The translations under genes were made by a program, and so were the position numbers. 64,000 bases of DNA from Trypanosoma brucei (Eukaryota). Below, piece by piece: positions 877-28,523 of this stretch. The DNA is taken from contig CP000071.1 in assembly GCA_000002445.1 (NCBI GenBank), positions 1,248,001-1,312,000 of the forward strand. Reading direction: 5' to 3'. Numbering within the stretch: the stretch's first letter is position 1; each line of letters starts with the position of its first letter. The notes under the pieces are model-generated. The model saw only the letters and a list, made by a program, of their open reading frames with translations, ran no database searches and was not told the DNA's origin.

Positions 877-2136
877 TCAACTTTTCCATATACCACACGT
901 ATTATCCTTCGATCCCGTTAATATTGTGTCTCCCTCATAGTTGAAAGCACACGAAAATATCTCATCATTATGCCCCGTAAGCGTTTGTAAATTCTGCCCC
1001 GTTTCCACGCTCCACACTCGACACGTCTTGTCATTTGCAGCCGAAATAATTTTTGTGCCTTGTGGGTTGAATTGAACCTTCGAAATCTCCCCTTCGTGCC
1101 CCACCAGACTTGCGACGCAGTTAAATGTCGCCGTGTCGTATACACGCGCCGTTGCATCTGCACTAGCCGTTACAATTTGGGATCCCGATGTGCTGAAAGC
1201 AACGTCAAGAATTTCATCCGTGTGCCCACGCAGCGTTGAAACACACTGTCCACTGCCTACATCCCACAACTTACTCGTGCGGTCAATGCATCCTGTGACG
1301 CAGAGGTTCCCAGCAAAGTTAAATTGCGTGGAGGAAATCTCCGCTCGATGGGAGCTCAATGTGTGTACGCATTTTCCCGTCCGCACATCCCACAACTTCG
1401 CAGTGGTGTCGAAACTACCAGTGAGAATGAGATCCCCATTCGTGTTAAAATTTAGTGAGACGATTTCTGCGGTGTGGCCGAGTAGTGTGTACAATTCTTG
1501 CCCTGTTTCAACATTCCACACCTTTGCCGTGTAATCCATTGAACCTGACGACAAGTGTGTGCTCTGGGGGTTGAAACTCATGCACACAATTTCCGCCATG
1601 TGTCCCGCCAGCGTGCAGTAGCACTGAGCTGTCCGTGCATCCCATATCTTACATGTTTTGTCGAAACTCCCTGTGGCTACTCGGTTGCCGTACGGGTTGT
1701 TGAACGAAACAGAGTAAACAACGTTTCGATGTCCCTCAAGAGAAACAATTTCATTGCCCGTGGCCGTGTCCCATACCTTACAGGTGCGGTCATAACTTCC
1801 TGTGATGAAAGAATCACCGCCTTTATTGAAGGCACAGTTGGTCAGTGGCAGCATGTGCGCTCGGAGAGTCTTGAAGAGGTAAAACGTTTGGTTGTTGTTG
1901 TAACCCGCACGAAGTTTGTCCACCAGGCGTTGCAGATACGTGACAATCTGCGGCAGAAGATTCATGGAGAGCAGGGGCTCCTCCTTGATTATTTCTGCGG
2001 CCAAGAGTTCTAGATTGGTGTTTGGCGTCAGCGTGAGTAAATCTATATGCTTCTCGCCCACCTCCCCAACGGAGGTCTCATATTCCAACGTTATTCCCGG
2101 AGGGTAGTATCGCAGCAAGAAGGAACGAAGCCGCAT
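877..2136 (-). CDS. ODA16: Outer-row dynein assembly factor ODA16 / DAW1 (WDR69) WD40-repeat protein
   Basis: The 419-aa ORF aligns near end-to-end by eye with human DAW1/WDR69: [15 protein letters not shown] vs [68 protein letters not shown] and the C-terminal [26 protein letters not shown]. It contains about 8 WD40 repeats. Confidence 0.9.
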
Positions 2137-2675
2137 GGGTTCAGTAAGTGGATGTGGGGGAAGAGTTAAACGAAGTCGGATATAAATATATATAAAGTAA
2201 ATGAGATTAAACCTTGAAGTAGCTAATCAACAACAAGTGACTGCTTTTTCTATACTTTAATATATGTACGTATATATGTTGCTCCTATAGAGTTAGAAAT
2301 AACACAAAACAAGAAAAAGGATGGTGCGAAAGTAACAGAAACCTTTCCATTTAAGTGTGAGCGAGAGATACAACATATGTCCATCCTCGTCGTAACGCGT
2401 AGTAACAGTGGAGGGAACCGTAAATAATCACAGAAGTAGCAGTAGGTGTTGTGGTGGGCAGTTTCTTTTTTTGCTGTTGCGTATTTGAAATATATGCTTT
2501 AAGACCCACTTGACATCCTTCCTTCACCAGCAGATCCCACAGGTGAAAAATGTGCTTCGACCTAAACACGTCGCGCGCTGCAGGTTCATCAGGGAGGTGC
2601 CAGGTGTCTGTGTATGCAGAAGAAACGAAAGAATGAAGACGGCAACGAAATAAAGATAGAGATGAGGAGCCGAAC

Positions 2676-2689
2676 AAAAAAAAAAAAAA
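2676..2689 (-). promoter_or_regulatory. Putative polypyrimidine tract in spacer upstream of ODA16
   Basis: A14 is embedded in a purine-rich plus-strand stretch (2640-2700), which is pyrimidine-rich on the coding strand, 5' of the ODA16 start at 2136. A second purine-rich stretch at about 2290-2345 is an alternative. Confidence 0.3.
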
Positions 2690-3194
2690 GCAGTCGATAC
2701 GACAAGAAAGAAAGGAGAGGCAATAGCCACAACCATCCTCGCTGAATATCTACCACTCCGCAACATATACAATCCTGAATCCTCACACACCGGCATGAAA
2801 TCAGCGCTTGTAAGAGTGCATCTCGGGTTGGAAGAGAACAGGTGACGTTGCCTGCCACGACGCAAATGGAAAAAAATGACACTAAACTGAGTGGGAGAGA
2901 CGGATACAAATACACTTCCACATCGCTGGCACTCGAAGCGTCATACTTGTCAAGAAAAACAAAGAAAGCCATCTACGAAATCAACGAAATAAAAATACTT
3001 CGTTTGGTTTCTCTTCCTCCCTCCTCTCTTTTTCTTTATTTCAGGGATCAAACACACATGGGCTGCGTCACTTGGTCTTTTTGCGGTTTAACATAATCAC
3101 AACTTCCGACCTCCCCTCCCCTTCCTTCAATGTCTCTTCCTGAAACAACAGCACACACTGCTTCTTCCCTACTATCGCAATAGGGCACTTCACA

Positions 3195-3872
3195 TCAAGA
3201 AAGATCATACGCGGCTTCGTCGGCGTCTTCGTCTGGAATGGATTCCCTCTCATACGCCTCATCGGCATCCTCGTCATCAACAAATAGTTCCTTATCCATT
3301 TGCCATAAGTCCCAACCACGAAGTTTGCCCTCGCCGGCTTTCGCCTTCCGCACACGAGCGGCATCCGCCTCGGCTGCCTCCTGTCGCTTGGCCGCTTTCC
3401 AGGCTTGAAAACTTTCCTCCGTAACGGGTGTGAGATCACTGCGCCCCTTCAATGCTTCACGTTCCGCCTCCAGCTGTTCCTCTAATCGGCGCTCATCGTA
3501 TTGCACCTCGTCAAAGTCCTCTGGTCTGAACAGGTATTCATCAGGGGCGCAACCGAGATTTTTGTCGACCTCTTCACCTTCTGCGTTGTTGGCACTTTCC
3601 TCTTGCTTCGATTTGTCCTGTTTATTGACGGTAGAAACGTCCTTGAAGAGGCGAGCCATCTCCATCTCGAAGGCCTTCTTCTCCTCACGGGCCTTTCGTT
3701 TTGCTTCAAGATCCTCATTACGCTTACGGTCATTGGGGTTTCCTTGATTGACACTTTTGGAAATGGATTGAATGTAGGACTGTACCTTCGAGCTTCTGTT
3801 CTTATTCTTCAACCCAAACGTTTTGTCTTCGACAATCTTTTCCCGCTTCTTCTGCTCAGCCTTCTTGCCCAT
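3195..3872 (-). CDS. DFRP1 / ZC3H15 / Tma46-like DRG-binding protein lacking the central CCCH zinc fingers
   Basis: The N-terminus KKAEQKKREKIVEDKTFGLKNKNRSSKVQSYIQS matches yeast Tma46 ([21 protein letters not shown]) and human ZC3H15. The C-terminal LTPVTEESFQAWKAAKRQE matches the DFRP domain (LTPITIANFAQWKK / ITLESFLAWKKRKRQE). The 225-aa ORF has no C-x8-C-x5-C-x3-H motif between these blocks. Confidence 0.75.
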   Translation of the reverse strand: MGKKAEQKKREKIVEDKTFGLKNKNRSSKVQSYIQSISKSVNQGNPNDRKRNEDLEAKRKAREEKKAFEMEMARLFKDVSTVNKQDKSKQEESANNAEGEEVDKNLGCAPDEYLFRPEDFDEVQYDERRLEEQLEAEREALKGRSDLTPVTEESFQAWKAAKRQEAAEADAARVRKAKAGEGKLRGWDLWQMDKELFVDDEDADEAYERESIPDEDADEAAYDLS

Positions 3873-4920
3873 GTTAACTTGCTCTTAATCGTTTTCTTTT
3901 TGTTGCTTTTGGCAGGTGCTCCGGTTGCTGAAGTTTGTAACAAATGTCTCCACGCCGCCCTACCAATTACTATGTTGCACCCTCTATTAACAACAACAAC
4001 GCAGATTCGCAAATCAAAAAGAACAAAAGGAGGAAGCGAATCGAATTAATTAATTCCGGAAGCACTGTGTAACCGCCTGTAGGCCGCCGCTGCGCCCACC
4101 AAACCTCCTGTGCATGTTTGCATTAGGGAGGGTAGAAAGGGACTGGAGAAGTGACGCTTACTTAAAAGAAGGGTAAACCACATTACTAGTCTCCTCTCAA
4201 AAAAGAAAAAGAAAAATTGTGTTTTTCGTTGTACCCCGTCTGCACATGACTAAACTAAGAAGCAGTTCGGAGCTTCACTCTCCTCTGGAAATTCCAATTG
4301 CATTTCCCCATGTGCTCGGGTACCTCCCACCAATCACTGATCTATGATAAATGTGTGAAGATATAGATGCAACCCGACAGACTAATTTCGTCTGCCTTGG
4401 CATGTACCTTCCCCTTTGCTTGGGGCTGCCACTGCTCCCATTGGTAGTTTCAAATCAATGAGCAAGTGGACAGCAAAAATAAACTTTCTCCCCTCCTCCA
4501 CATTCAAATATTTGTATAGGATGTGTAAGAGGAAACGACGGTGCGCAGAAGCGCACCCGCCCGCGGAATACACGGGGCGGGTGAGAATCCCACGACACTT
4601 GAGTGTGATGGTAAGTGCATGGCACTGCTAATAAGATAGAAAAGAGAAAAGTGGGCAAGAAAACCCAGCGAAGGAGGTGTGAATCATTTATTCACTCCTT
4701 TCTTCTTTTCCATTCCCCCTACACTCCTTCTCATATATCTTTTCACCCTTCTATACTGGCGCATATTCAGCATTTTCTATAGATCTGTTGGACCCACCCT
4801 CAGGTAGGGTCGCGAGAGAATGGAAAGGAAGCGTTGAAACAAACATCACTGACCAAAAATAAAAAAAAGAAGGGGAAACAAAACAATAACCACCCGAAAC
4901 AAGATACGATTACTCAACAC

Positions 4921-7900
4921 TTAACGCCGTACTCTCTCGAACCAGCGATCTTCATCTCCTATGATATCCGAACTGTTGGAAATTGCAACACGGCCTACAC
5001 GTCTTACCCCGGAAGTACTTCGGACTCTTGGACGAGTAGTCAATTCGGCCTCCGCCTCTTCATCGTCGTAGCTCACTTCCCTAACAGCCGCGTCTCCTTG
5101 TAGACGCGAGGGCGATGGTTGAGGTGACGATTGGAACGATGGTGATGGGGGGCGTCTAGTGGGTGGAGTCCTTCTTATCGGCCGCCTAACCGCTTCCTCT
5201 TCCTCTTCTTCTATTTCATCCACCTCATGATTCATGACGGGGGGCGCAGGTCTGCGGGTGATGTAACCCCTTCGTGGAACTGGGGCTGGTGGTATCTCAC
5301 TTGAAGGTACGCTCCGGAACGAGTCAGGTACAAACTTTCGATCGGGTTGAGATGAAGGGCGACGAGGAGCTCCTTCAACACCGTCACCACCCCTCTCCAT
5401 AGCTTGAAGTCGATCCCGTTGCTCCCGCCCACGCGTTGGTGGCGGGCCTCCTCTTTTTCCATTTGCACTCGCAAACAGAGGTTGTTGTGGCCTCTTTTTC
5501 GCTTCGTGGAACTCTGCTTGCTCGTTCACCTGCTCCTCCTCGACTTCTTCGTACTTTACCTCTTCCTCATCAACCGCTTCTCCATCCGCCATCTCGACCT
5601 CCTCCTCCTCCTCCTCCTCCTCCTCTTCCACTTCTTCCTCTTTCATGGCGGTACTCCTGGAGGGCGGTGACCTCGACTTTCCACCCCTTCCTGATTTAAC
5701 CACAACCTTTGTTTCTTCACCTTCCATTTCGGTTCCCTGAAGCGTATTGCCCACCGTCTGGGGAATTTGGGAACTACCATGTTTTGTTGACGAATCCCTT
5801 GAAGCAATACCCCGTCGTGCGGGTGCCGCTATCTCCTCCATTTCGTCAAAATCATCATCATCGTCAGCCTCTGGGAGTAACTGTACAAGCGTTGGCGTAA
5901 GCAGTGCCTCGAGGTCGTCACGGTTGGTCAGAATGTCGTGAACCACAGAAACATCAAACTCCTCTATGGCTTCCACAAGACTAGAGACACTCTCGCACTG
6001 AGCTATTGCATTCGCAAGTCCTAGCGGTTCAGCAAGCTGATAAAGACGCTTTTTCTCTGCCACTGAGAAAGGCCCTTCGGTGTCAATACTAACAATGGAT
6101 GTGTTTGCGTTACTCATGGCAGTTGCTCTGTTGGTTCCACTGCCGCCGCTAATGGAAGTGGCCAAAATGTGGTAATGCACGACGTTTACACGGGTTAGAA
6201 TCTGCTGATCAAGCACGTGAAGCACCCCAAGCATCGCCTCAGCAAAACGACAACGAATGTCTTCTTCACGAACAGAACTCTTGAGAGATGTTTCGTATAA
6301 GTGCAGCGTGGTTCCCATCAATGCGACGACACTACACCCCGAGTTGAAGTCAATTGCCGGCCGAATGGGCGTGAAACGACACTTTTTATTCGCGAAGAAT
6401 GCTGTAAACGCCTTAACGGCTTCATCAACCTTTTCCGCCGTCATGTCAGTTACGTTTTTACCACGCCGGGACCGGTACGGACGCCGATCAGATGAGAGAA
6501 GAGGAAAACCAAACGGAGGTACATCACGCACATCAACCGTAACGGGATGCCCACGCGAAATGGTACGCAACAAAACAGCAGCGTGTATTAGTGCCTCTAC
6601 ACCCTTTTCTTTGTAGAATCGGACGGACGCCACGTCGGCTGTGGAGGCCTCACGCGCTTCTGCGTAGCTGTTATACGCAGCCCACACCTGCTTCAATGCG
6701 GCAATCTCCGCCGTATCGTTACGCGATAAACTTGTCGAACTGAAGGCACTATAAAGGGCGAACGGATCCACCTGGGAAATCTCGTCGTCGATTGGTATGA
6801 CGAAGCCTCTCTTCTCGTCCTCCCTAACGTCCGGTAGATGCAGATAGCCATCTGCACTGCTAAACTGGTGAAGCATCAGGGCGGTAAGGCGCGCTAAAGA
6901 CTCTCTCTCTTTCTTGTTGGGCGGTGAAACAGTTGTTGCGGATGCGGTCGCAGCATTTTCGCCACGCTGCTCCTCCTCGACATCGGCATTGTGGTGTCTA
7001 CCTTTTTTCTGCGGACTGTCATCAGTGCCCCTCTTCTTATGTCGGACTCTCATCGCCTTCGGGTCGGAAGCTTCCGCTTTCACATTCTCCGGGGTCGCTA
7101 CCGGATTCAAGTTTCTATTGCCCCGCACGTATGGGGCGGGAGCAAACTCCTGCTCTGTCTCCTCCAAGAGGCGTGCGATCTCAGCATCCTCATCTGTATG
7201 TACAGTCTCAGCAGCCTTCTCATTTTTCTTGCTATTGCTTGCGGCCGCAGCCACTTTATCTTCCTCTCCCTCCCCGAAACCCTCCCCAGCAGCCAACTCT
7301 ACTTGTCTCGCATGCCTCTTTCCTCTGTTCTTCGGTGACTTGTTAAACTTGTTACCAGAGGCATCAGTTTTGTCTTCTCCCTCCTCGGTTGCTGACGCCG
7401 CACTCGCTTCTTGGCTTTTGTTCTCTCTCTTCTCTCCAGCAGCTTCACTAGCTGCAGCTGCCACAGCCCCTGGGAGTGCCGCCTGCATCCCCGTGATAAG
7501 TGGTGCGAGTATTTTCCTGTTGCCCTTATTCGCTACGAACTCTTCAATTACAGCAGCCTGTATTGTTTTTGTTAACCACATAATCACCTGGTCCTTCTGT
7601 GACTCAGCAGGTTGCCGTGCCATCGTGGCATACGCTTCTTCTAAAACGCCCCGGGTATACATCGACACAGGAACTCGCTCCCGGTTCTCATCCCAACGAC
7701 CCACCGTCGTTATACCCGCAAGACGGAGCGCTCGCGCGTCTTTGCACACCTGATAGCGTTCCGAGGCAAGAACGACATCCAACCATTCGCGGCGGCCGCG
7801 TAAGGCCGTAAGTTGTCGCCGTGGGACCATTGCGACAAAATCAAGCATGGACACGTCCTCAACATCAGAGGCGCCGGAATCAATCAACAGCTGTACGACA

Positions 7901-8271
7901 CCCCGCAACGTGTCAGTACGTATACCACTCCCACCGGGTTCTAGTTCAGGAATCAGTACCTGTTCGATTGAACACTGATGCGGCAATGTGTGCGGAATGT
8001 TACCGCCATTAGTTGGGGTCATATTTGAAGACGTGGAGTGGTAACGAAAGCTTCCACTTAGGCCCGTAGCACATAAGCTTCTGCGTCGTAATCCATTCGT
8101 CACAGTGGTGAGGAGTCCAACGCACGCCACATGTTTTGGGGCCAGAGAAACAAGATTACGGCGAAGCATGGCTTTTGTTCGTTCTACTCCCCTCACACTT
8201 TTAAAGGCTCCGGTTCGTTCCACTGTGTGTGATCCGGTTTGGTTTCCAGGACACGTGGAGTTGAAAACCAC
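4921..8271 (-). CDS. Large hypothetical protein (1116 aa), paralog of the adjacent 9778-14847 gene; poly-Glu and Pro-rich C-terminal tail
   Basis: A long uninterrupted ORF on the coding strand of the unit. Two blocks are shared with the neighbouring gene: LLIDSGASDVEDVSMLDFVAMVPRRQLTALRGRREWLDV...ALRLAGITT, and PPFGFPLLSS...FFANKKCRFTPIRPAIDFNSGCSVVALMGTTLHLYE...FAEAMLGVLHVLD. An in-frame (GAG)n run encodes E10. Confidence 0.7.
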   Translation of the reverse strand: MVFNSTCPGNQTGSHTVERTGAFKSVRGVERTKAMLRRNLVSLAPKHVACVGLLTTVTNGLRRRSLCATGLSGSFRYHSTSSNMTPTNGGNIPHTLPHQCSIEQVLIPELEPGGSGIRTDTLRGVVQLLIDSGASDVEDVSMLDFVAMVPRRQLTALRGRREWLDVVLASERYQVCKDARALRLAGITTVGRWDENRERVPVSMYTRGVLEEAYATMARQPAESQKDQVIMWLTKTIQAAVIEEFVANKGNRKILAPLITGMQAALPGAVAAAASEAAGEKRENKSQEASAASATEEGEDKTDASGNKFNKSPKNRGKRHARQVELAAGEGFGEGEEDKVAAAASNSKKNEKAAETVHTDEDAEIARLLEETEQEFAPAPYVRGNRNLNPVATPENVKAEASDPKAMRVRHKKRGTDDSPQKKGRHHNADVEEEQRGENAATASATTVSPPNKKERESLARLTALMLHQFSSADGYLHLPDVREDEKRGFVIPIDDEISQVDPFALYSAFSSTSLSRNDTAEIAALKQVWAAYNSYAEAREASTADVASVRFYKEKGVEALIHAAVLLRTISRGHPVTVDVRDVPPFGFPLLSSDRRPYRSRRGKNVTDMTAEKVDEAVKAFTAFFANKKCRFTPIRPAIDFNSGCSVVALMGTTLHLYETSLKSSVREEDIRCRFAEAMLGVLHVLDQQILTRVNVVHYHILATSISGGSGTNRATAMSNANTSIVSIDTEGPFSVAEKKRLYQLAEPLGLANAIAQCESVSSLVEAIEEFDVSVVHDILTNRDDLEALLTPTLVQLLPEADDDDDFDEMEEIAAPARRGIASRDSSTKHGSSQIPQTVGNTLQGTEMEGEETKVVVKSGRGGKSRSPPSRSTAMKEEEVEEEEEEEEEEVEMADGEAVDEEEVKYEEVEEEQVNEQAEFHEAKKRPQQPLFASANGKRGGPPPTRGREQRDRLQAMERGGDGVEGAPRRPSSQPDRKFVPDSFRSVPSSEIPPAPVPRRGYITRRPAPPVMNHEVDEIEEEEEEAVRRPIRRTPPTRRPPSPSFQSSPQPSPSRLQGDAAVREVSYDDEEAEAELTTRPRVRSTSGVRRVGRVAISNSSDIIGDEDRWFERVRR
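5598..5628 (-). repeat. In-frame (GAG)10 trinucleotide repeat encoding poly-Glu inside the 4921-8271 CDS
   Basis: The plus strand reads cctcctcctcctcctcctcctcctcctc. On the coding strand this is GAG x10, translated as EEEEEEEEEE within VEEEEEEEEEEEEVEMADGE. Confidence 0.9.
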
Positions 8272-18034: not shown

Positions 18035-20854
18035 CTAAGCGGTAAAGGAAGGAGTAACAGTTTGTGAAGGAGTCGACAGGGAAAGGACTGCAGCCTCATA
18101 AAGAGAGAGAAGCACCATAAACTGATCCACTCTCAAGCGCTTCGTAGGTTCTAGTTCTAGAAGACCAGCTATCAGTCTCTGCATATGCAGCAGTTCTTGT
18201 GAATGTCTCGGCAGCGTGGGCATTACAGCTGCCCGTTCAGCAGCCTTTACGTAACAGTTTTGTGTGTGGTCCACATCAGACCGGCACTTTGGGTTTTGGC
18301 ATGGAGGATACAACCGCCGAGAGTACATCAGTTCGTATAATGTCGCCCCAAGGCTGTAACAATCGGTGGCGCGGCTACACATTTTGTGTTTGAGCGCGCG
18401 AAGGTCCATATAATCGTAGGTGCCAATAGCCCCCTTTACTCTATCACTATTTTTTGGCCCCACTATGCGACAATTACCAAAGTCACTCAGATAAAAAATA
18501 TATGGGCCGGGAACTGAATCACTCTGTGACCATAGTGCTGCCGGCTCCGTGGCCGGTCGACCTGAGGAGCCCAGTTGCGTCCCCGTCCCTAATGTACATT
18601 GCGTTTGTTCATATTGCTGTTGGGAATACTCTTGGGAGCACATACTTTTGCGTCTGTAAAGGATATTACTTGGCTTAACATCAAGATGCAAGATCCCAAA
18701 TTCGTGCATTGCTTGCAGTACCGTACCAACGCAAAAGCCAACGTCCCTGACGGCATCTGTGTTATGAGGAAAGTTTTCCAGGTCCCCATCGCACAAATCT
18801 GTTACAAGAAATATGGTTGCATCACACCGCATCGTATCCTCCGTGGTTATGGTCAAAAACCGCGGTAATCTCACACTTTCACCTTGTTTACCCCCATCCA
18901 AACTCCCGTTCACGTCACTGTTTGACCATTTCTCTCCGTATTCATCTTCCCTTCCATCAGGTAGTATTCGTTGCGCCTGACACAACTGTTCCCCCTGTGG
19001 GACAAGTGATCCTTGCCATTTCACGGAGATTGCGACATCGGGAGGAAGACACTCTTGGCCCTGCACAAAGAAGGCACTATGGAGTGGAAGAACGTATGGG
19101 ACTCCGTGCTTTCCCAAAAAGCGCATGACGACGACTTCGCGCAAAGTAGAAAGTGCATCGCTAACGCTGCCTCGACTCTGCAAACTTAAAGGACACGACT
19201 TCACAGCGACAACATCTCCTCTCAACGTACGGCAACGCCATACGAACCCAAAACTACCCTCGCCAACATATTCAACATCCTTGAACGCACCCCAGAACAC
19301 TCCTTCTTCAAGACAGTATTTTTTTGAAATGACGTGTTCCACTGCCTCATAAAACGATTCACGAGTAAAGGTTGTGTGAAATAACGGACGCAACTCTTCT
19401 ACAAGACGAGTATCTCTCAAAGTGCTGAATTCGTGATCCACCGGCGTACTTTCACTCACTGCTTCCGCACTACTGACCTTCATTGTGCTCGACATAACGG
19501 AGAAGCTATTCAAATCAACGGGTTTACACCGTTCAGTAGGAAAAAGGAGATCCAATATACTACCCGTTGGTGAAAATGTTTCTTTCCATTGGGGACATGT
19601 TGATGGTTTTGGCTCCGGCGTGTGGTTTTCAGGGGAAGGCAAATCCTCGGCGAGGCAATCGCGCGGACCTCCTCCATTCGCCGTGGCGGTGACGAGTTGG
19701 GCTGCCCCTGTCGCTGGTGTCTCTGCTCTGCTGCTACTATCACTATCACTGTCATCAACAAGGATGTATTCTCTGCCACCACTACTGGCACATGAGCAAT
19801 AGCTTTGGCACGTCGCAAAAAGATGATCATCAGAAAATGCAATGGACGATTGTTGCGTGGAAGGTAGAGGCGGTAGTGGTGACGCCGTATTTGCTGCAGC
19901 TCCTCGAAGGGTGACTTTTGTGGTGTGGTCTTCATCAGACGATGCATAGCTATCATCACAAATAGTGTAGTTGCTTGTAGATGAACTTCCTCCGCGCGGA
20001 CCCGTTCCATGGGCACGTAGAGGTTCTTTGCGCTCGCGAGGCGTTTGGTCAAGCACCCCTGAAGCGGCATACCGACACTGGTTTTCTCGAAGCTGTTCAC
20101 CGCGGGTGAATGATGGTGCATTATGCTCTCCCCTGGCAGTAGACCAAGTGCCGTGCGATTCCTCTGACCTCCCCGGAAAATATGACGTCGTACATAGCGC
20201 ATCCTCAGCATCGTCGACGTCTTCGAAGGAAATACAATGCCCTTTCGAGGGCTTGGTGAGTCTTGTGGTTGTTATATGCCGGACAGGGGCAGCTAAATGG
20301 CGGTCGACTGTGGTGGAAGTGGCACTACCCACACCCTTCACCCAGCCCATTTTGCCATATGCAGGACTAATCCCAGTGTTGGCGACTAAAGCGTTACTGC
20401 AACCAAAACTACCGCTACTCCCCTCTTCCTCACGTGCTGAGAGGCGCTCTGCCACATACGCGATGGGGCGGGGTGAAGTATTAGAGTTTTGAGCGGTACC
20501 CCTGCAATCTCTGAACCGGTGATGTGAGGTCATCATAGCACCCCAGCCGTCCACACATGACCCCATGCGATGAGGCATGAACCTCGATACTGAAGGAGTT
20601 CCGGCCCCAATTACTGATGGTCGCACATTATGGGAGGATACAACACCGCTTCCACCTGCTGCAGCTCCTACTGATATTGCTATTTCTGGATTTGACAGAA
20701 GTGACTCCCTACCCGACACCTCATTCGGTACGGCTTCATTGTCGTCACTGCAACTGATACTCCAGCTGCGTTCACGATTCCGTTTGGTTTGACGTAATCC
20801 CATCGAGGAGTTCGCTGTTGAGGTACCCCCCTGTGGTCGTCTGATTTCACTCAT
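18035..20854 (-). CDS. Ser/Thr protein kinase (non-RD type) with long Ser-rich N-terminal region and large kinase-domain inserts
   Basis: The C-terminal half has a Gly loop GEGSFGFVWRC, VAVK, the catalytic loop HLDVKPSNILY (HLD rather than HRD), DFG in YLSDFGNCRIV and subdomain IX DCYSLGATLYELM. There are 60-70-aa insertions before the hinge and between the catalytic loop and DFG. The N-terminal roughly 500 aa are S/T/G-rich and disordered. Confidence 0.85.
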   Translation of the reverse strand: MSEIRRPQGGTSTANSSMGLRQTKRNRERSWSISCSDDNEAVPNEVSGRESLLSNPEIAISVGAAAGGSGVVSSHNVRPSVIGAGTPSVSRFMPHRMGSCVDGWGAMMTSHHRFRDCRGTAQNSNTSPRPIAYVAERLSAREEEGSSGSFGCSNALVANTGISPAYGKMGWVKGVGSATSTTVDRHLAAPVRHITTTRLTKPSKGHCISFEDVDDAEDALCTTSYFPGRSEESHGTWSTARGEHNAPSFTRGEQLRENQCRYAASGVLDQTPRERKEPLRAHGTGPRGGSSSTSNYTICDDSYASSDEDHTTKVTLRGAAANTASPLPPLPSTQQSSIAFSDDHLFATCQSYCSCASSGGREYILVDDSDSDSSSRAETPATGAAQLVTATANGGGPRDCLAEDLPSPENHTPEPKPSTCPQWKETFSPTGSILDLLFPTERCKPVDLNSFSVMSSTMKVSSAEAVSESTPVDHEFSTLRDTRLVEELRPLFHTTFTRESFYEAVEHVISKKYCLEEGVFWGAFKDVEYVGEGSFGFVWRCRTLRGDVVAVKSCPLSLQSRGSVSDALSTLREVVVMRFLGKHGVPYVLPLHSAFFVQGQECLPPDVAISVKWQGSLVPQGEQLCQAQRILPDGREDEYGEKWSNSDVNGSLDGGKQGESVRLPRFLTITTEDTMRCDATIFLVTDLCDGDLENFPHNTDAVRDVGFCVGTVLQAMHEFGILHLDVKPSNILYRRKSMCSQEYSQQQYEQTQCTLGTGTQLGSSGRPATEPAALWSQSDSVPGPYIFYLSDFGNCRIVGPKNSDRVKGAIGTYDYMDLRALKHKMCSRATDCYSLGATLYELMYSRRLYPPCQNPKCRSDVDHTQNCYVKAAERAAVMPTLPRHSQELLHMQRLIAGLLELEPTKRLRVDQFMVLLSLYEAAVLSLSTPSQTVTPSFTA

Positions 20855-21509: not shown

Positions 21510-23435
21510 TTACGTGGAGGATCCCCAAGCAGCATCATATGTCTCGAGTAGCCACTCCAGCTCCATGCAGCTCAAATCCGCACACACGGCACCACTAAGT
21601 TTCTGCAATTGACTTTCCACGTGTAATAAATGATGGCAGCCACCGCAGGAGCAGCAGCTACAAGCCTCAAGTTGGCGCTCAGTCTCGTCGTTCGGTGCGC
21701 CATGGCGTTGCTTTACGTAATACAACAATTCAAGAGGCAACGTAAAAGCATGGGGAACGGTGAGTCGTTGAAGAGCCCACAAGGCTCTAACTGAAAGTGC
21801 CGCATCATCACAATCTTCTCCCATAGTCGAGTGATGGAGAAGGAGTTGCAATTCCTCTGTTAGCGAAGTCTCAAATACCCCGCGGTCGTCGGTGTTAAAG
21901 GAGATATTAGCCATAGTCGTCTTATACCCTTCTTCATTGTCGGAGGTTTCCTTCCAGAATATCAAACGACGCTTCACCCGGCACCTCATGGCTTCAGCGA
22001 GCTGCACACTGTCCAATAAAATATCGATAAGTCGTGGCGTATTTTCCCTTACGTCCTCAACATTACGCCCCCACTCTTGTTGCTGGGCGGACATTATTTG
22101 TGTCAAATGATGTTTCTCCACGGAAGAATACCCACCAGTGAGAAGATTACTTGACAGGCACAATTCGATAGGATCATACCGCGCTGTTATAGTCTTGAGG
22201 TTCGCAGGATCTGTGAACACGAGGTGGCCCCAGCGATCGGGGGCAAACCCAACTATTTCGGTGAGTTCTGCCGTATCCGGCTTCTCACCGGCGTGAATCG
22301 TAATCCCAAGCGGCGAACGGTTGGTAACAACCCCGCCATTCCCGTCCCGACCCCGTCGAACTTCGCTCAGTGCGGGAACGAATTCAGTAAAAGAGTTTTT
22401 GCCGCAATAACCGGAGAAATCCATTCCAGTCACCCAACATGTTCGTCTAATCACATCCCACAACCGCGACTCCACGTCTGATATGGCTGAACCGTCCACT
22501 ACGCCGGAAGTGCGGCATTCCGCGCACATTTGCCGTTCGCTTTCGAAGAAGTTTTCCAGCTGCTCGTGTTGCAGTTTCTTGGCAAGAAGCGCTACCTCCA
22601 TCGCCACTTCACCACCATGGCTTCGGTTTAGAGACACGAGAAGTCGAACATGCATTCTGTGCTGGAGATGATAGCGGAGTTTGCCCCACCACTTCAATCC
22701 CATATCCTCACTGGAAGTGCCTCCATCAAAAAATGACGGGTATAACCGCTGGAACTCGGCCCACCACTCAGTGGTTGGTGATTCACTTATAGGAAGGAGG
22801 TTTCCAGTGTCAAATGCCACCAACCCGCCATTTAAAATGTGCTGAACGGTAGAAGTAACCGCCTCCAGATATGCTTCTTTACTGACGCACTCCGAGTTTA
22901 CGGAAGCCACTGAGGCGGCAGCAGTTTTATAAAGCTTCTCCCGCAGCGATGTCCGTATCTCAAGAAGAACAATATTTTCTGCTGCAGAGTGCAGAAGCAA
23001 ATCCTGCACAGCCATCCGCGTGAATGCGAGGTTGTTTACCACCTTATATATATTATCAAACACAGTAAAGCAGTACTTCATTCGTTCGCTCGGTGAATCC
23101 AGTTGTTTGAGTCCTCCTTCTCCGCTCTTAAAATTTCGCGGATGTAGCTCTGCATCAACATCCTCTGAAGAAGTTGCATCTTCCTCGCGTTTTCCCTGCG
23201 CCGCACGTTGTAATTCTTCCATGTGAGAAAGCAGTGGAGTGCTGATACTCCCGTTGAGGTGGCAATGCAAGTCAACTTTTGGAATGGCAGAAGCATCAAT
23301 TTCATCACAACTACCAACCCTCTGCGCCCAAGCACGTGCAAAGTCATATAACCGCCCCTCCATTCCGATTTCGGTGCGTCCCAAGAAATTGGCCTCTCTG
23401 TTGAGCCGTTTATTCCAAATGGTGTGAACTAACAC
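21510..23435 (-). CDS. Adenosine/AMP deaminase-family metallohydrolase (ADA-like) with C-terminal Cys/His-rich extension
   Basis: ADA signature motifs are present: KVDLHCHLNGSIS (the H-x-H metal ligands), ITIHAGE (the HAGE motif) and SFNTDDRGVF (compare SLNTDDP). At 641 aa it is much longer than canonical ADA (about 360 aa), with inserts and a C-terminal CSCCSCGGCHHLLH cluster. Confidence 0.8.
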   Translation of the reverse strand: MLVHTIWNKRLNREANFLGRTEIGMEGRLYDFARAWAQRVGSCDEIDASAIPKVDLHCHLNGSISTPLLSHMEELQRAAQGKREEDATSSEDVDAELHPRNFKSGEGGLKQLDSPSERMKYCFTVFDNIYKVVNNLAFTRMAVQDLLLHSAAENIVLLEIRTSLREKLYKTAAASVASVNSECVSKEAYLEAVTSTVQHILNGGLVAFDTGNLLPISESPTTEWWAEFQRLYPSFFDGGTSSEDMGLKWWGKLRYHLQHRMHVRLLVSLNRSHGGEVAMEVALLAKKLQHEQLENFFESERQMCAECRTSGVVDGSAISDVESRLWDVIRRTCWVTGMDFSGYCGKNSFTEFVPALSEVRRGRDGNGGVVTNRSPLGITIHAGEKPDTAELTEIVGFAPDRWGHLVFTDPANLKTITARYDPIELCLSSNLLTGGYSSVEKHHLTQIMSAQQQEWGRNVEDVRENTPRLIDILLDSVQLAEAMRCRVKRRLIFWKETSDNEEGYKTTMANISFNTDDRGVFETSLTEELQLLLHHSTMGEDCDDAALSVRALWALQRLTVPHAFTLPLELLYYVKQRHGAPNDETERQLEACSCCSCGGCHHLLHVESQLQKLSGAVCADLSCMELEWLLETYDAAWGSST

Positions 23436-25503: not shown

Positions 25504-26079
25504 TCATTCCTTTCTGTGCCGGTTCTTTGGGTTTGCGTACTCTTCTATTGATAACCAACCATTTGCTTCTGCTTCAGCAAATGCCTCCGGGAATGCAGCC
25601 TTTTCCCAACGGAGGTAATTCACTACTTGGCGTTGCAGTTGCCGTGGATTTAATTGATAGGGATTTAACTTTCTGTCCAATGACATGGCCTTGAAATCTG
25701 TTTGGTGCTTGCGTATGAGGTTTGCCATCGTGACGGCCTCTTCTTCGCTGATACGCCTGACCTGTAGTGTTCCTTTACGTTGCTGTCGCAGTTCCTCCAA
25801 TTCATTTTCCTCTTCGAGCCGCCGTGTGGGTTGCGACGGTTCATCCACTATTTTTTTTGGTGTAATGCTCGGATCTTTTGCGAGTCCGAGACTCTTAAAG
25901 TTGCTGGAGGCGGTACTGAAGCGCTTAAAATACTTTTTGGTGAAGTAATTGTTAGATCCGGCCTTATCAATTTGGTGAAGATGGGCGAAGCGGCGCTTGA
26001 GATATTTCTTTCGTCCACTGCGCGTGATCGGAATATTTTTCTTCGCCTTCCCCTTAGGTGTCACCCTAATTCGCCCCAT
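25504..26079 (-). CDS. NOP16: Nucleolar ribosome-biogenesis protein NOP16
   Basis: The 191-aa basic protein has the C-terminal HQTDFKAMSLDRKLNPYQLNPRQLQRQVVNYLRWEKAAFPEAF, which matches the NOP16 family (human EDYKAMARDEKNYYQDTPKQIRSKINVYKRFYPAEWQ). It has a Lys/Arg-rich N-terminus. Confidence 0.65.
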   Translation of the reverse strand: MGRIRVTPKGKAKKNIPITRSGRKKYLKRRFAHLHQIDKAGSNNYFTKKYFKRFSTASSNFKSLGLAKDPSITPKKIVDEPSQPTRRLEEENELEELRQQRKGTLQVRRISEEEAVTMANLIRKHQTDFKAMSLDRKLNPYQLNPRQLQRQVVNYLRWEKAAFPEAFAEAEANGWLSIEEYANPKNRHRKE

Positions 26080-26089
26080 GCTTCCTTCC

Positions 26090-26135
26090 TTCCCCGAATA
26101 ATAATAATAATTATTATTATAATTACTACAACAAC
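26090..26135. repeat. (AAT/ATT)n low-complexity tract, representative of the 2.4-kb AT- and trinucleotide-rich spacer 26080-28523
   Basis: taataataataattattattataattactacaacaacg. Similar (CAA)n, (ATA)n and (CAT)n runs occur at 26625-26652, 26856-26880, 28253-28275 and 28396-28430. Confidence 0.8.
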
Positions 26136-28523
26136 GATTGCTGATGTCTCTGCGTTTGTCACTTTTCTTTTTGTTTTGCCGTGTGAGTTTAACTCACTTG
26201 CACCCTTCTCCCGTGTAGCAGATTAGCCGCTATTCCTTTCCCCCTTTTAATTATGCACAATAGCACATGCATAATGGGGACGAAGTGAAGTAAAAGATTA
26301 AGAAAAGAAAAAAAATTTAAAGGGAGGAGTTAAAAAAAAAAGATGTGAAATAAATGCAATGTGTGTAGTTTGTTATACACCATAACTTATTCAAAGCTAC
26401 CGCCATGCGGTTTCCCGCCATCATTTGACGGGCTTTTTTTTTTTGAGCCGCCGATTATTCGATGTTAGTTAAACATTCTTTTTTTTAAAAAAAAATCTGT
26501 GTTCAAACGCACATTCAACATCCCTGCACTCTGTGTTTTCTCCCGCTTTCTCATAACAACCACTAGTGGACCCACTGAAGAAAAACAAAATAAAAATAAG
26601 AAAAAGGAAAAGGAAACGAACAACAACAACAATAATAATAATAATACATAATTTCCCCCCTTAAAAGTAGTGTGTCGCCAACACTAATAATTGAGGTAAC
26701 CGTATCTATCACATAGATAATGTTACTGCAATATGAGAAGGCGAAAAAAAGAAAAGAAAGAAAGAAAGAAAAAAGTGTCGAGAACAGCAATTCAATGCAA
26801 TGCAAAGTAGTCGATCGTGTAGCACGCGGCAGCTGAGTGACGAAAGACAAGGTGTAATAATAATAATAATAATAATAATGACAAATGAAATATTTCATAA
26901 AATGAAAAAGAAAAGAAAACAACAACAACAAAAACAAAAAGGATCACTGAAGAGACGAGCAGGCGCTTTCACATGCTTTCACAATTGCATGAAAATATTA
27001 ATACAAAAACAAAACAAACAAATAAATATATACTGAAGACTTCTTTCAGTATACGTGATCACATGACATAAACCAATTAACAACGAGTACCTCAAAACAA
27101 GAAAAAGAAAAAAAAAAGAAAAACGAAAGCTGTAAAAGTGTGCAGCCAAGTAAAGAATTTATTCTATACTTTTCTTCTCTTTTTGGAAAATGTATAAGAG
27201 GAAGGAAAAGGGAGTCGGGGAGAGGGGAAGTGAATTAAAAGAAGTGACAACGAAACAAACAAAAAAAAAACAGCAACACAGTATACCCACTGTGAAGGTG
27301 AAATATGTTACAAAACAATAATAATGACAACAACAGGCTGCGAGTGAGTTCCCCTCCATCATCCTTTAAAAAAAAATGAATAATTTCATGCAGCAGAATT
27401 CAACCCAAAAACATATTTGTTTTCTTTTTATTTTGGATTTCCCCCTCCAGTTTCTTTCATATTTCCATGTTCCCCTTGTTGGTAAAACTCTGCACATGTT
27501 CATTATTTTGTTTTGTGTCATTGGTCGGAAAAAAAAACGCAAATAAGTCAAATAATCCCCTATCTCCTGAAAAAAAAAAGAAAACAGAACTTCAAGATGA
27601 GAAATAAAAGAAACGGTGGGGTAAAACGGAATGGAAGCCACTAAAACCCTCCCCCCTTTTTTATCATCGCAGCCAATAGAGCAAACAGACAAAAGAAAAC
27701 ATGGAAGGAAACGAGACATAAAAAAAAAACAAAAAAAAAAAATAGCTTCAATATTCATTTGCGCATGCAAACAATACAGGCGCCGCAAGTCTTTCTTCAC
27801 GTGGTCTCTTCTTCCCTTCCTTTTTTTTTGCAATATAAATTCTCTTCCCCTCTTCCTCCTATCAATGTACCCAAAGCAAACAAACACACAAATAAACAAA
27901 CACGTATATGGCATCAATAATATATATATATATATATGTATATTCATTTACACTGACACATATTTATATATGTGGATACAGATATATGCATGTATATATA
28001 AATATGTATATGTATATTCATGTGCTTGCGTGTAGTTTTTTTTAAATAAAAAACATATTTATACCCCTTCATCTTTTAATATATATATATATATTTGATC
28101 TGACCCTTCAGTTCTTTCAGGTCATTTTACTCAGTTAAACAATGTAAAAGATGAGCATCTCAACACCTAATGCCTTCCCTTTACTTTTCCCCCTTCACTT
28201 TAACTTTTTGCGTCTCACAAAGAACATACATTAGCATTAGGGGACAGCGGTACAACAACAACAACAACAATAATTAAAAAAACCCGCTGCCAATATGGTC
28301 AACTAACTAACCAACTAACCTTAAGAAAAAAAAAGAGAGCAAGCGCATGCCGAGAAAAAGTAGAGTGAACGAAGAAGAGAAATCCCAACAAATAATAATA
28401 CATGTATAACAATCATCATCATCATCATCATCTCGCGCATGAAACTAAGAAGAAAGGAGAACTCGAAACCTGTGGTCGTTGGAGGTTGCAGTAGCCACTA
28501 ATGATCGCGCAAACACAAGAAAG

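What the first reader, a model, noticed from the sequence alone, without database searches (positions are those of the whole stretch)
3195..3872. DFRP1/Tma46 (ZC3H15) homolog that has lost its CCCH zinc fingers
The ORF keeps the conserved N-terminal KKxEKxxEDKTFGLKNKNRSxKVQxYIQ segment and the C-terminal DRG-binding DFRP region (LTPVTEESFQAWK...) found in yeast Tma46 and human ZC3H15. The roughly 100 aa that carry two CCCH zinc fingers in those proteins are absent in one continuous frame, so the loss is not a frameshift artefact within this window. This would be a fingerless DFRP: a DRG GTPase partner that has lost its RNA-binding fingers. That is unusual for the DFRP1 branch and looks more like DFRP2.
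Basis: partly seen in the sequence, partly recalled or inferred. Interest (0 to 1): 0.5.

Follow-up and report, generated by a model that had tools for sequence, protein, structure and literature searches.

The report
Trypanosome DFRP1 without zinc fingers
This Trypanosoma brucei gene encodes the partner protein of the translation GTPase DRG1, but it naturally lacks the two zinc fingers that tether the yeast version to the ribosome, and the same fingerless form occurs throughout the trypanosome phylum and in some other eukaryotes.

Summary
Window 3195-3872 on the minus strand is one 225-aa ORF of Trypanosoma brucei. It has the invariant DFRP1 N-terminal motif, a significant DFRP_C domain (PF16543, E 9.6e-14), one Cys and no His. 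About 85-100 aa that carry both CCCH fingers in canonical DFRP1 are missing in frame. This is not an artefact. There is no CCCH pattern in any frame nearby. The gene is syntenic in Leishmania. More than 100 homologs of about 220 aa across kinetoplastids, diplonemids and euglenids have the same architecture, and in Diplonema one exon spans the junction. It is DFRP1-type, not DFRP2-like: it has no RWD domain, the family profile hits only Tma46 in the PDB, and 4 of 5 Rbg1-contact residues are kept. Finger loss is not unique to Euglenozoa. Red algae and some stramenopiles are also fingerless, Gregarina keeps only finger 2, and other lineages carry a different insert or an added dsRBD. Most likely it wraps and stabilises DRG1 and reaches the ribosome without fingers, through DRG1 itself plus the retained basic N-terminal motif. 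That step is inferred. I found no paper that describes this. It is a new variant of a known kind, of moderate interest.

The parts
3195..3872 (-). Complete CDS of the fingerless DFRP1 homolog (225 aa; stop codon at 3195-3197)
   Evidence: ORF list; 100% identical to the T. b. gambiense protein P0001, found on record FN554971.1.
3768..3839 (-). aa 12-35, DFRP1-specific N-terminal basic motif KIVEDKTFGLKNKNRSSKVQSYIQ. It is the most conserved block of the protein
   Evidence: Mean column identity is 0.95 for aa 16-30 across 56 euglenozoan homologs. E15 D16 K17 T18 F19 G20 K22 N23 K24 Q31 are invariant across fingered and fingerless proteins in A1. The block aligns to Tma46 residues 6-40.
3600..3737 (-). 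aa 46-91, long K/R/E-rich predicted helix
   Evidence: AlphaFold2 predicts helix H46-91 with block pLDDT 70-89; charge count.
3546..3599 (-). aa 92-109, variable acidic linker at the position where canonical DFRP1 carries CCCH finger 1, a linker and CCCH finger 2
   Evidence: A1 columns ~122-232 are absent. Conservation is lowest here (0.26 for aa 91-105). pLDDT is below 50 for aa 94-103.
3501..3545 (-). aa 110-124, Euglenozoa-specific aromatic/acidic motif PDEYLFRPEDFDEVQ (Y113, D119, F120 invariant)
   Evidence: Invariant columns in A2. The pattern [ED]xY[LIM][WFY]xx[ED]DF[DE] is present in 42 of 56 A2 members. Among the other 325 proteins it occurs in 63, all of them fingerless hits to the T. 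brucei query; none came from the fingered-query search.
3240..3485 (-). aa 130-211, DFRP_C domain, the predicted DRG1-wrapping helices (H130-142, H152-178, H186-192)
   Evidence: PF16543 E 9.6e-14. The A2 profile hits 4a9a_C (Tma46 205-345 in complex with Rbg1) at E 3.2e-4. Model pLDDT is 84-92 for aa 131-180, apart from 70 for aa 141-150. Tma46 contact residues I241/F246/W249/K250/H253 correspond to V150/F155/W158/K159/K162.
3198..3257 (-). aa 206-225, acidic C-terminal tail
   Evidence: Net charge -7; low conservation and low pLDDT.
3984..4216 (-). Upstream region with two polypyrimidine tracts (4199-4216 and 4011-4040 on the coding strand), each followed by AG. These are candidate trans-splice acceptor signals (inference only)
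   Evidence: Read directly from the sequence. There is no experimental mapping.

Best explanation
This is the Trypanosoma brucei ortholog, by descent, of DFRP1 (yeast Tma46, human ZC3H15), in a form with no zinc fingers that is shared by all sampled Euglenozoa. SHOWN: the protein keeps the DFRP1-specific N-terminal motif and the C-terminal DFRP helices. The aromatic and basic residues that contact the GTPase in the yeast Rbg1-Tma46 crystal structure are conserved. The whole two-finger module is absent in frame. The protein is strongly conserved and syntenic. INFERRED: like Tma46, it is an intrinsically extended adaptor whose helices at aa ~128-205 wrap the G and TGS domains of the trypanosome DRG1 GTPase, stabilising it and raising its GTPase activity on paused ribosomes. 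In yeast, finger 2 inserts between 18S rRNA h16 and h33 to anchor the complex on the 40S subunit. That anchor does not exist here. [quoted passage not shown] It probably also uses the basic N-terminal KTFGLKNKNRS motif, which is invariant in every fingerless lineage, and possibly the Euglenozoa-specific EYL[FW]xxEDFD motif that sits where the fingers used to be.
For: Identity: DFRP_C E 9.6e-14. Tma46 is the only PDB relative. F155, W158 and K159 are identical to Tma46 F246, W249 and K250, and V150 corresponds to I241; these are the residues whose mutation lowers Rbg1 GTPase activity (PMC3510508; alignment). W158, T148, L134 and E131 are invariant in 56 homologs.

Real and functional: identity is 78% to T. 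cruzi and 67% to Leishmania, with full coverage. The gene order ~1080-aa protein, DFRP, 419-aa WD40 protein is the same in L. mexicana. In Diplonema one exon encodes aa 23-194 without interruption.

No cryptic fold: the AlphaFold2 model is all helix with nothing compact at aa 92-129.

No second, fingered copy is reported: PMC2873481.

A DRG1 partner exists in the group: DRG1 was detected in Leishmania proteomics (PMC5000668).

The N-motif is the element never lost: it is invariant in A1 across fingered, finger-2-only and fingerless proteins.
Against: In yeast, finger 2 is essential for Tma46 function, and deleting the N-terminal finger domain abolishes ribosome binding in vitro. A fingerless DFRP1 would therefore be predicted to be non-functional on yeast rules. 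No trypanosome binding, localisation or ribosome data were found. I could not retrieve the T. brucei DRG1, DRG2 or DFRP2 sequences with these tools, so partner choice is untested. The role proposed for the N-terminal motif is inference. It does not appear among the Tma46 parts the preprint says were built into the ribosome structure.
Confidence: 0.7

Rival explanations
1. Fingers supplied in trans. The RNA-binding and 40S-anchoring function was not lost but moved to a separate protein, for example one of the many kinetoplastid-specific CCCH proteins. That protein would dock on the Euglenozoa-specific EYL[FW]xxEDFD motif, making a three-part DRG1 complex.
For: A new, strongly conserved aromatic/acidic motif (Y113, D119, F120 invariant) sits exactly at the former finger position and is found only among the fingerless hits to the T. 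brucei query. Kinetoplastids have many lineage-specific CCCH proteins. Other lineages have swapped or added RNA-binding modules: a dsRBD in P0172, and a different insert in the Thraustochytrium protein.
Against: There is no direct evidence. No T. brucei CCCH protein with similarity to the DFRP1 finger module has been reported. The motif could equally be an extra DRG1 or ribosome contact.
Confidence: 0.1
2. Changed or widened partner. Without fingers the protein acts like DFRP2, or as a general DFRP. It would bind DRG2, or both DRGs, mainly as a stabilising chaperone rather than a ribosome-recruitment factor.
For: The architecture is superficially like DFRP2 in having no fingers. The role of DFRPs in protecting DRGs from degradation is established (PMC8629797). 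H253 of Tma46 is replaced by K162.
Against: There is no RWD domain. The profile matches Tma46 but not Gir2 or RWDD1 at E<=10. The DFRP1-specific N-motif is retained and invariant. Four of five DRG1-contact residues are kept.
Confidence: 0.12
3. Extra paralog. The fingerless gene is an ancient duplicate that coexists with a canonical fingered DFRP1 elsewhere in the T. brucei genome.
For: The euglenid Ploeotia vitrea transcriptome holds both a fingerless (P0121) and a fingered (P0128) sequence.
Against: P0128 has no named euglenozoan among its 120 best hits. Its nearest named relatives are Paulinella, amoebozoans, fungi and oomycetes at about 50% identity or less. It groups with Paulinella in the N+C-region tree, so prey or contaminant origin is likely. 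Contamination of this kind is demonstrably present: a kinetoplastid-like sequence is filed under Colponema. The TriTryp CCCH census found no such orthologue.
Confidence: 0.05
4. Decaying remnant. This is a truncated, functionless relic of DFRP1.
For: A module that is essential in yeast has been lost.
Against: The ORF is intact. Identity is 78% and 67% across trypanosomatids. Twenty columns are invariant across 56 sequences spanning kinetoplastids, diplonemids and euglenids. Synteny is conserved.
Confidence: 0.02

Closest known systems
DFRP1 = yeast Tma46 / human ZC3H15 (Lerepo4), partner of DRG1/Rbg1 (PDB 4A9A, 7RR5)
   Same: It shares the invariant N-terminal EDKTFGLKNKN motif, the C-terminal DFRP_C domain with the TPxT..F..WK helix that stacks on Rbg1 alpha8/alpha9, the extended all-helical non-globular character, and the acidic tail.
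   Different: Both CCCH fingers and the linker between them (about 85-100 aa) are absent. In yeast, finger 2 is required for function, and the N-terminal finger domain for ribosome binding. A Euglenozoa-specific aromatic/acidic motif occupies the junction. Trypanosomatids have also replaced the usual MPPK N-terminus with MGK(K/A).
DFRP2 = yeast Gir2 / human RWDD1, partner of DRG2/Rbg2
   Same: It is a small protein without zinc fingers that carries a DFRP region.
   Different: It has no RWD domain, no detectable sequence match to Gir2 or RWDD1 in the PDB at E<=10, and it carries the DFRP1-only N-terminal motif. The resemblance is only the absence of fingers.
Fingerless or finger-reduced DFRP1 variants in other eukaryotes (undescribed in the papers searched)
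   Same: Galdieria and Bangiopsis (red algae) and Chattonella (a raphidophyte) have N-motif + DFRP_C with no Cys-rich module. Gregarina keeps only finger 2.
   Different: Their junction sequences differ from the euglenozoan motif, and they fall in separate clusters in a crude NJ tree, which suggests independent losses. Some carry replacements: P0172 has a C-terminal dsRBD (PF00035, E 1.2e-6), and Thraustochytrium P0125 has a ~110-aa non-CCCH insert.

Membership tests
DFRP1 (Tma46/ZC3H15) | C-terminal DFRP domain (Pfam PF16543) | tested here: met
   E 9.6e-14, 52.1 bits against a cut-off of 27.5, aa 130-211. The A2 profile hits 4a9a_C at E 3.2e-4.
DFRP1 (Tma46/ZC3H15) | DFRP1-specific N-terminal motif (EDKTFGLKNKxxS.KVQ) | tested here: met
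   aa 15-31 are present. The motif is invariant across fingered and fingerless sequences in A1. The first A2-profile stretch, aligned to Tma46 residues 1-72, scores 52 bits (E 7.3e-13).
DFRP1 (Tma46/ZC3H15) | Tandem CCCH zinc fingers between the N-motif and the DFRP region | tested here: not met
   No zf-CCCH Pfam hit at E<=1. The protein has 1 Cys and 0 His. No CCCH pattern occurs in six frames of 2500-4600. The gap is clean in A1.
DFRP1 (Tma46/ZC3H15) | Conservation of the Rbg1/DRG1-contact residues of helix alpha2 (Tma46 I241, F246, W249, K250, H253) | tested here: met
   The T. brucei equivalents are V150, F155, W158, K159 and K162: three identical, one conservative, one changed. W158 is invariant and F155 nearly invariant in A2.
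DFRP1 (Tma46/ZC3H15) | Physical and specific binding to DRG1, and stabilisation of it | not testable with these tools
The only support is a literature mention of DRG1 in Leishmania proteomics.
DFRP1 (Tma46/ZC3H15) | Association with translating ribosomes | not testable with these tools
   No trypanosome data were found.
DFRP2 (Gir2/RWDD1) | N-terminal RWD domain | tested here: not met
   No RWD family appears in the Pfam scan at E<=1. The AF2 model shows only helices, with no alpha+beta RWD fold.
DFRP2 (Gir2/RWDD1) | Sequence similarity of the DFRP region to Gir2/RWDD1 rather than to Tma46 | tested here: not met
   The single sequence at E<=1 and the 56-sequence profile at E<=10 hit Tma46 chains but no Gir2 or RWDD1 chain.

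The most novel reading that the evidence does not exclude
The CCCH module, regarded as a conserved and functionally required part of DFRP1, is evolutionarily dispensable. It appears to have been lost independently at least three times (Euglenozoa, red algae, some stramenopiles), reduced to finger 2 in a gregarine, and replaced or supplemented elsewhere. The short N-terminal KTFGLKNK motif is never lost. If so, that uncharacterised motif, not the fingers, is the universal second functional element of DFRP1 (a ribosome or DRG1 anchor). Trypanosome DRG1-DFRP1 would then engage the ribosome in a finger-independent way, possibly helped by a lineage-specific motif or a trans-acting partner.
Probability: 0.35. 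Interest if true: 0.55.

Novelty: new variant of a known kind. Interest (0 to 1): 0.4.

Why it matters
In yeast, the CCCH finger 2 of Tma46 is the 40S anchor that brings the DRG1 GTPase to paused ribosomes, and reviews describe both fingers as highly conserved. A whole phylum, including the human pathogens Trypanosoma and Leishmania, keeps a well-conserved DFRP1 without any finger. This is a natural deletion experiment. Either DRG1 recruitment does not need the fingers, or another element has taken over. It points to the invariant but unstudied N-terminal motif as the thing to test. It also makes the trypanosome complex a simple system for asking what DFRP1 does beyond RNA binding. Practically, automatic names such as 'CCCH-type Zn-finger protein' (Strigomonas) or 'Zinc finger CCCH domain-containing protein 11' (Diplonema) on these orthologs are misleading.

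Tried and rejected
(1) Frameshift or sequencing artefact: rejected. There is no CCCH pattern in any frame of 2500-4600, and both homology blocks lie in one frame. The sequence is identical in two T. brucei assemblies and two read-assembled contigs.

(2) Missed exon: rejected. The T. brucei ORF is continuous, and in intron-bearing Diplonema one exon spans aa 23-194.

(3) Hidden compact domain replacing the fingers: rejected. The AF2 model has no fold at aa 92-129. The Foldseek search against the PDB gave nothing below E 2.8, as expected for an extended model with pTM 0.29.

(4) DFRP2-like identity: rejected.

(5) Fingered paralog in Euglenozoa: the only candidate, 'Ploeotia' P0128, behaves like a contaminant. 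This is not formally excluded.

(6) Literature on trypanosome DFRP or DRG: five searches found nothing specific.

(7) I considered whether the tyrosine said to stack on 18S A506 could be the Y of the PPGY-like position retained in Euglenozoa. This is unlikely, because the paper places it in finger 2 and yeast has F at that post-finger position.

(8) I did not use the third large homolog search. No available query would have put T. brucei DRG1 or DFRP2 into a top-120 list.

Full report
WHAT IS THERE

Window 3195..3872 holds a single 225-aa ORF on the minus strand, starting with ATG. The protein is 100% identical to a 'hypothetical protein, conserved' of Trypanosoma brucei gambiense DAL972, on record FN554971.1. 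The window is therefore T. brucei nuclear DNA. All large ORFs in the window lie on the minus strand, as expected for one polycistronic unit.

Pfam finds DFRP_C (PF16543) at aa 130-211 with E 9.6e-14 and 52.1 bits against a gathering cut-off of 27.5. No CCCH or RWD family appears at E<=1. Against PDB sequences the only relative is yeast Tma46. Its residues 6-76 align to aa 2-78, which includes the motif DKTFG(L/M)KNKNRS.KVQ.YI. Its residues 220-252 align to aa 128-161. The protein has one Cys and no His, so it cannot form a CCCH site.

IS THE ABSENCE OF FINGERS REAL?

Yes. Several independent checks agree:
- In an alignment with fingered homologs, the N-terminal ~95 aa and the C-terminal ~100 aa align well. 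The segment carrying finger 1 (C-x8-C-x5-C-x3-H), the linker and finger 2 (long C-C spacing) is simply missing (A1).
- Across 194 homologs that have both the N-motif and the DFRP core, the spacing between them has a median of 127 aa in the 142 fingerless proteins and 212 aa in the 52 fingered ones.
- A six-frame scan of 2500-4600 finds no CCCH pattern. tblastn with two fingered homologs hits only 3863-3630 and 3485-3243, both in the ORF's frame, and finds no finger-like segment anywhere in the 64-kb window.
- In Leishmania mexicana the ortholog (221 aa) has the same neighbours: a ~1080-aa protein upstream and a 419-aa WD40 protein downstream.
- In Diplonema papillatum, whose gene has two introns of roughly 4-5 kb, one exon encodes aa 23-194 continuously across the junction. 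A skipped finger exon is therefore excluded.

HOW FAR DOES IT GO?

The 120 best hits to the T. brucei protein are all ~210-300 aa, apart from a few fragments, and have PF16543 as their only precomputed domain. They include:
- Trypanosoma species (identity 70-83%)
- Leishmania, Leptomonas, Phytomonas, Angomonas and Strigomonas (59-67%)
- Trypanoplasma borreli
- the diplonemids Rhynchopus and Diplonema

The euglenids Ploeotia vitrea and Entosiphon sulcatum also have fingerless versions. Twenty columns are invariant across 56 of these sequences. The fingerless state is therefore old and under purifying selection, not a T. brucei oddity.

The Ploeotia data set also holds a fingered sequence, P0128. 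Three results argue that it is a prey or contaminant sequence rather than a euglenid gene:
- Its 120 best hits include no named euglenozoan.
- Its closest named relatives are Paulinella, amoebozoans, fungi and oomycetes, at about 50% identity or less.
- In a neighbour-joining tree of the N- and C-terminal regions it sits with Paulinella.

Contamination of this kind is clearly present in these resources. A sequence 61% identical to the T. brucei protein is filed under the alveolate predator Colponema vietnamica. A fingered paralog in some euglenid is not formally excluded.

For T. brucei itself I could not scan the genome. [quoted passage not shown]

NOT ONLY EUGLENOZOA

The exhaustive representative search found 617 hits at E<=1e-3. 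It revealed several DFRP1 architectures:
- Two fingers: the canonical form.
- Finger 2 only: for example Gregarina niphandrodes P0151.
- No fingers: Galdieria phlegrea, Bangiopsis, Chattonella subsalsa and many unnamed metagenomic sequences.
- No fingers plus a C-terminal dsRBD: P0172 (PF00035, E 1.2e-6); P0144 is similar.
- A ~110-aa Cys-containing non-CCCH insert in place of the fingers: Thraustochytrium sp. LLF1b P0125.

In the crude NJ tree, which has no support values and long branches, the fingerless proteins fall into at least three separate clusters: Euglenozoa, red algae, and a stramenopile-like group next to the Thraustochytrium variant. Their junction sequences also differ. The euglenozoan motif [ED]xY[LIM][WFY]xx[ED]DF[DE] is found only among the fingerless hits to the T. 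brucei query, and in none of the sequences from the fingered-query search. This pattern fits repeated independent loss. Whether those other organisms also keep a fingered copy was not tested.

WHICH FAMILY?

The protein is DFRP1-type by descent. The evidence is:
- The N-terminal motif is DFRP1-specific and invariant in A1.
- A 56-sequence profile hits Tma46 (7rr5_T at E 1.2e-15, 4a9a_C at E 3.2e-4) and no Gir2 or RWDD1 chain at E<=10.
- There is no RWD domain.

Because the tandem CCCH module is treated in the literature as a characteristic part of DFRP1 (PMC3064805, PMC8629797), I file this as a fingerless variant, not as a standard member.

HOW IT PROBABLY WORKS

Shown:
- The residues of Tma46 helix alpha2 that stack on Rbg1 alpha8/alpha9, and whose mutation lowers GTPase activity, are I241, F246, W249 and K250, with H253 also in the stack (PMC3510508). 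They correspond to V150, F155, W158, K159 and K162 (alignment).
- W158 is invariant and F155 nearly invariant among 56 homologs.
- AlphaFold2 with this alignment gives an extended all-helical model (mean pLDDT 72, pTM 0.29). Helices 130-142, 152-178 and 186-192 lie in the DFRP region, where pLDDT reaches 84-92. Nothing is folded at aa 92-129.

Inferred: the protein wraps the trypanosome DRG1, as Tma46 wraps Rbg1, stabilising and activating it. Literature evidence that trypanosomatids express a DRG1 is limited to a proteomics mention for Leishmania (PMC5000668).

The problem is ribosome recruitment. In yeast, finger 2 binds between 18S h16 and h33. Deleting the N-terminal finger domain abolishes ribosome binding in vitro (bioRxiv 10.1101/2020.07.06.190082). 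Cys-to-Ala changes in finger 2 abolish complementation and reduce polysome association, whereas finger 1 mutants are functional (PMC3064805).

In Euglenozoa that anchor is gone. What remains, and is the best-conserved block of the protein (0.95 mean identity at aa 16-30), is the basic N-terminal motif. It is followed by a long K/R/E-rich helix and a lineage-specific aromatic/acidic motif at the former finger site.

My best guess is finger-independent recruitment through DRG1's own ribosome contacts plus the N-terminal motif. The N-motif does not appear among the Tma46 parts the preprint says were built into the ribosome structure, and I found no functional study of it, so this step is inference.

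Rivals are listed in full in the rival-explanations section:
- fingers supplied in trans by another protein that docks on the new motif
- a switch or broadening of partner towards DRG2
- a hidden fingered paralog
- a decaying relic, which conservation effectively excludes

KNOWN OR NEW?

Databases already label these proteins 'ZC3H15/TMA46 family C-terminal domain-containing protein', so the gene and its family assignment are not new. Full-text searches found no paper that mentions a trypanosome DFRP or a naturally fingerless DFRP1. The reviews read here describe both fingers as highly conserved.

I rate this a new variant of a known kind, of moderate interest. It would mildly surprise a DRG/DFRP specialist, and it offers a clean natural test of what the fingers and the N-terminal motif are for.

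LIMITS

- Taxon names are known for only a minority of the sequences.
- The tree is crude.
- The absence of a fingered copy in T. brucei rests on a 2010 census.
- Partner binding and ribosome association are untested.

Noticed in passing
window 3861-3872 (aa 1-4); proteins P0001-P0123: Trypanosomatid orthologs start MGKK or MGKA, whereas bodonid, diplonemid and euglenid orthologs and most fingered DFRP1s start MPPK or MPAK. In A2 the counts are 26 MPPK, 3 MPAK, 9 MGKA and 8 MGKK. I recall X-P-K as the consensus for N-terminal methylation by NRMT1. A 2026 preprint lists DFRP1/ZC3H15 as an NRMT1 target. Trypanosomatids may therefore have lost this modification site as well.
   Followed up: partly
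P0172 (339 aa) and P0144 (402 aa), unnamed Logan assemblies: These are fingerless DFRP1 homologs with a C-terminal double-stranded-RNA-binding domain (PF00035, E 1.2e-6 in P0172; a Dicer_dimer/dsRBD-like hit in P0144). This looks like a swap of RNA-binding module.
   Followed up: partly
P0125, Thraustochytrium sp. LLF1b (MMETSP0198), aa ~125-250: This DFRP1 homolog has a ~110-aa Cys-containing segment with no CCCH pattern and no Pfam hit in place of the two fingers. Related unnamed sequences are P0163 and P0197.
   Followed up: no
P0151, Gregarina niphandrodes, and about a dozen unnamed proteins (P0136, P0143, P0156, P0160...): These DFRP1 homologs keep only the second, long-spaced CCCH finger and have lost finger 1. 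That fits the yeast result that finger 1 is dispensable.
   Followed up: partly
P0057 (EukProt EP00744 Colponema vietnamica) and P0128 (EukProt EP01006 Ploeotia vitrea): These look like cross-species contamination in protist transcriptomes. The 'Colponema' protein is a kinetoplastid-type fingerless DFRP1, 61% identical to the T. brucei protein. The fingered 'Ploeotia' protein groups with Paulinella.
   Followed up: partly
L007 4001-14285 (Diplonema papillatum JAPJBO010000071.1): The 247-aa Diplonema ortholog is spread over about 10.3 kb in three exons, with introns of roughly 5.4 kb and 4.1 kb. NCBI names it 'Zinc finger CCCH domain-containing protein 11' although it has no finger.
   Followed up: partly
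window 4921-8271 (-): A 1116-aa ORF immediately upstream of the DFRP gene has long Glu-rich, Pro-rich and Ala-rich low-complexity stretches and no Pfam hit. A protein of similar size (1079 aa) occupies the same position in L. mexicana.
   Followed up: no
window 877-2136 (-): A 419-aa WD40 beta-propeller protein lies downstream (eight WD40 repeats, PF00400 E 6.5e-78). A 419-aa gene occupies the same position in L. mexicana. Its specific identity was not determined.
   Followed up: no
window 26001-28000: GC content drops to 0.34 here, against 0.40-0.54 in the other 2-kb blocks. The dip lies between a Nop16-like gene (25504-26079) and an ORF without Pfam hits (27366-27947).
   Followed up: no
window 18035-20854, 21510-23435, 25504-26079 (all -): Other recognisable genes in the same minus-strand array are a protein kinase (Pkinase, E 3.4e-24, C-terminal half only), an adenosine-deaminase-domain protein (E 6e-10) and a Nop16 ribosome-biogenesis homolog (E 3.3e-13).
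   Followed up: no
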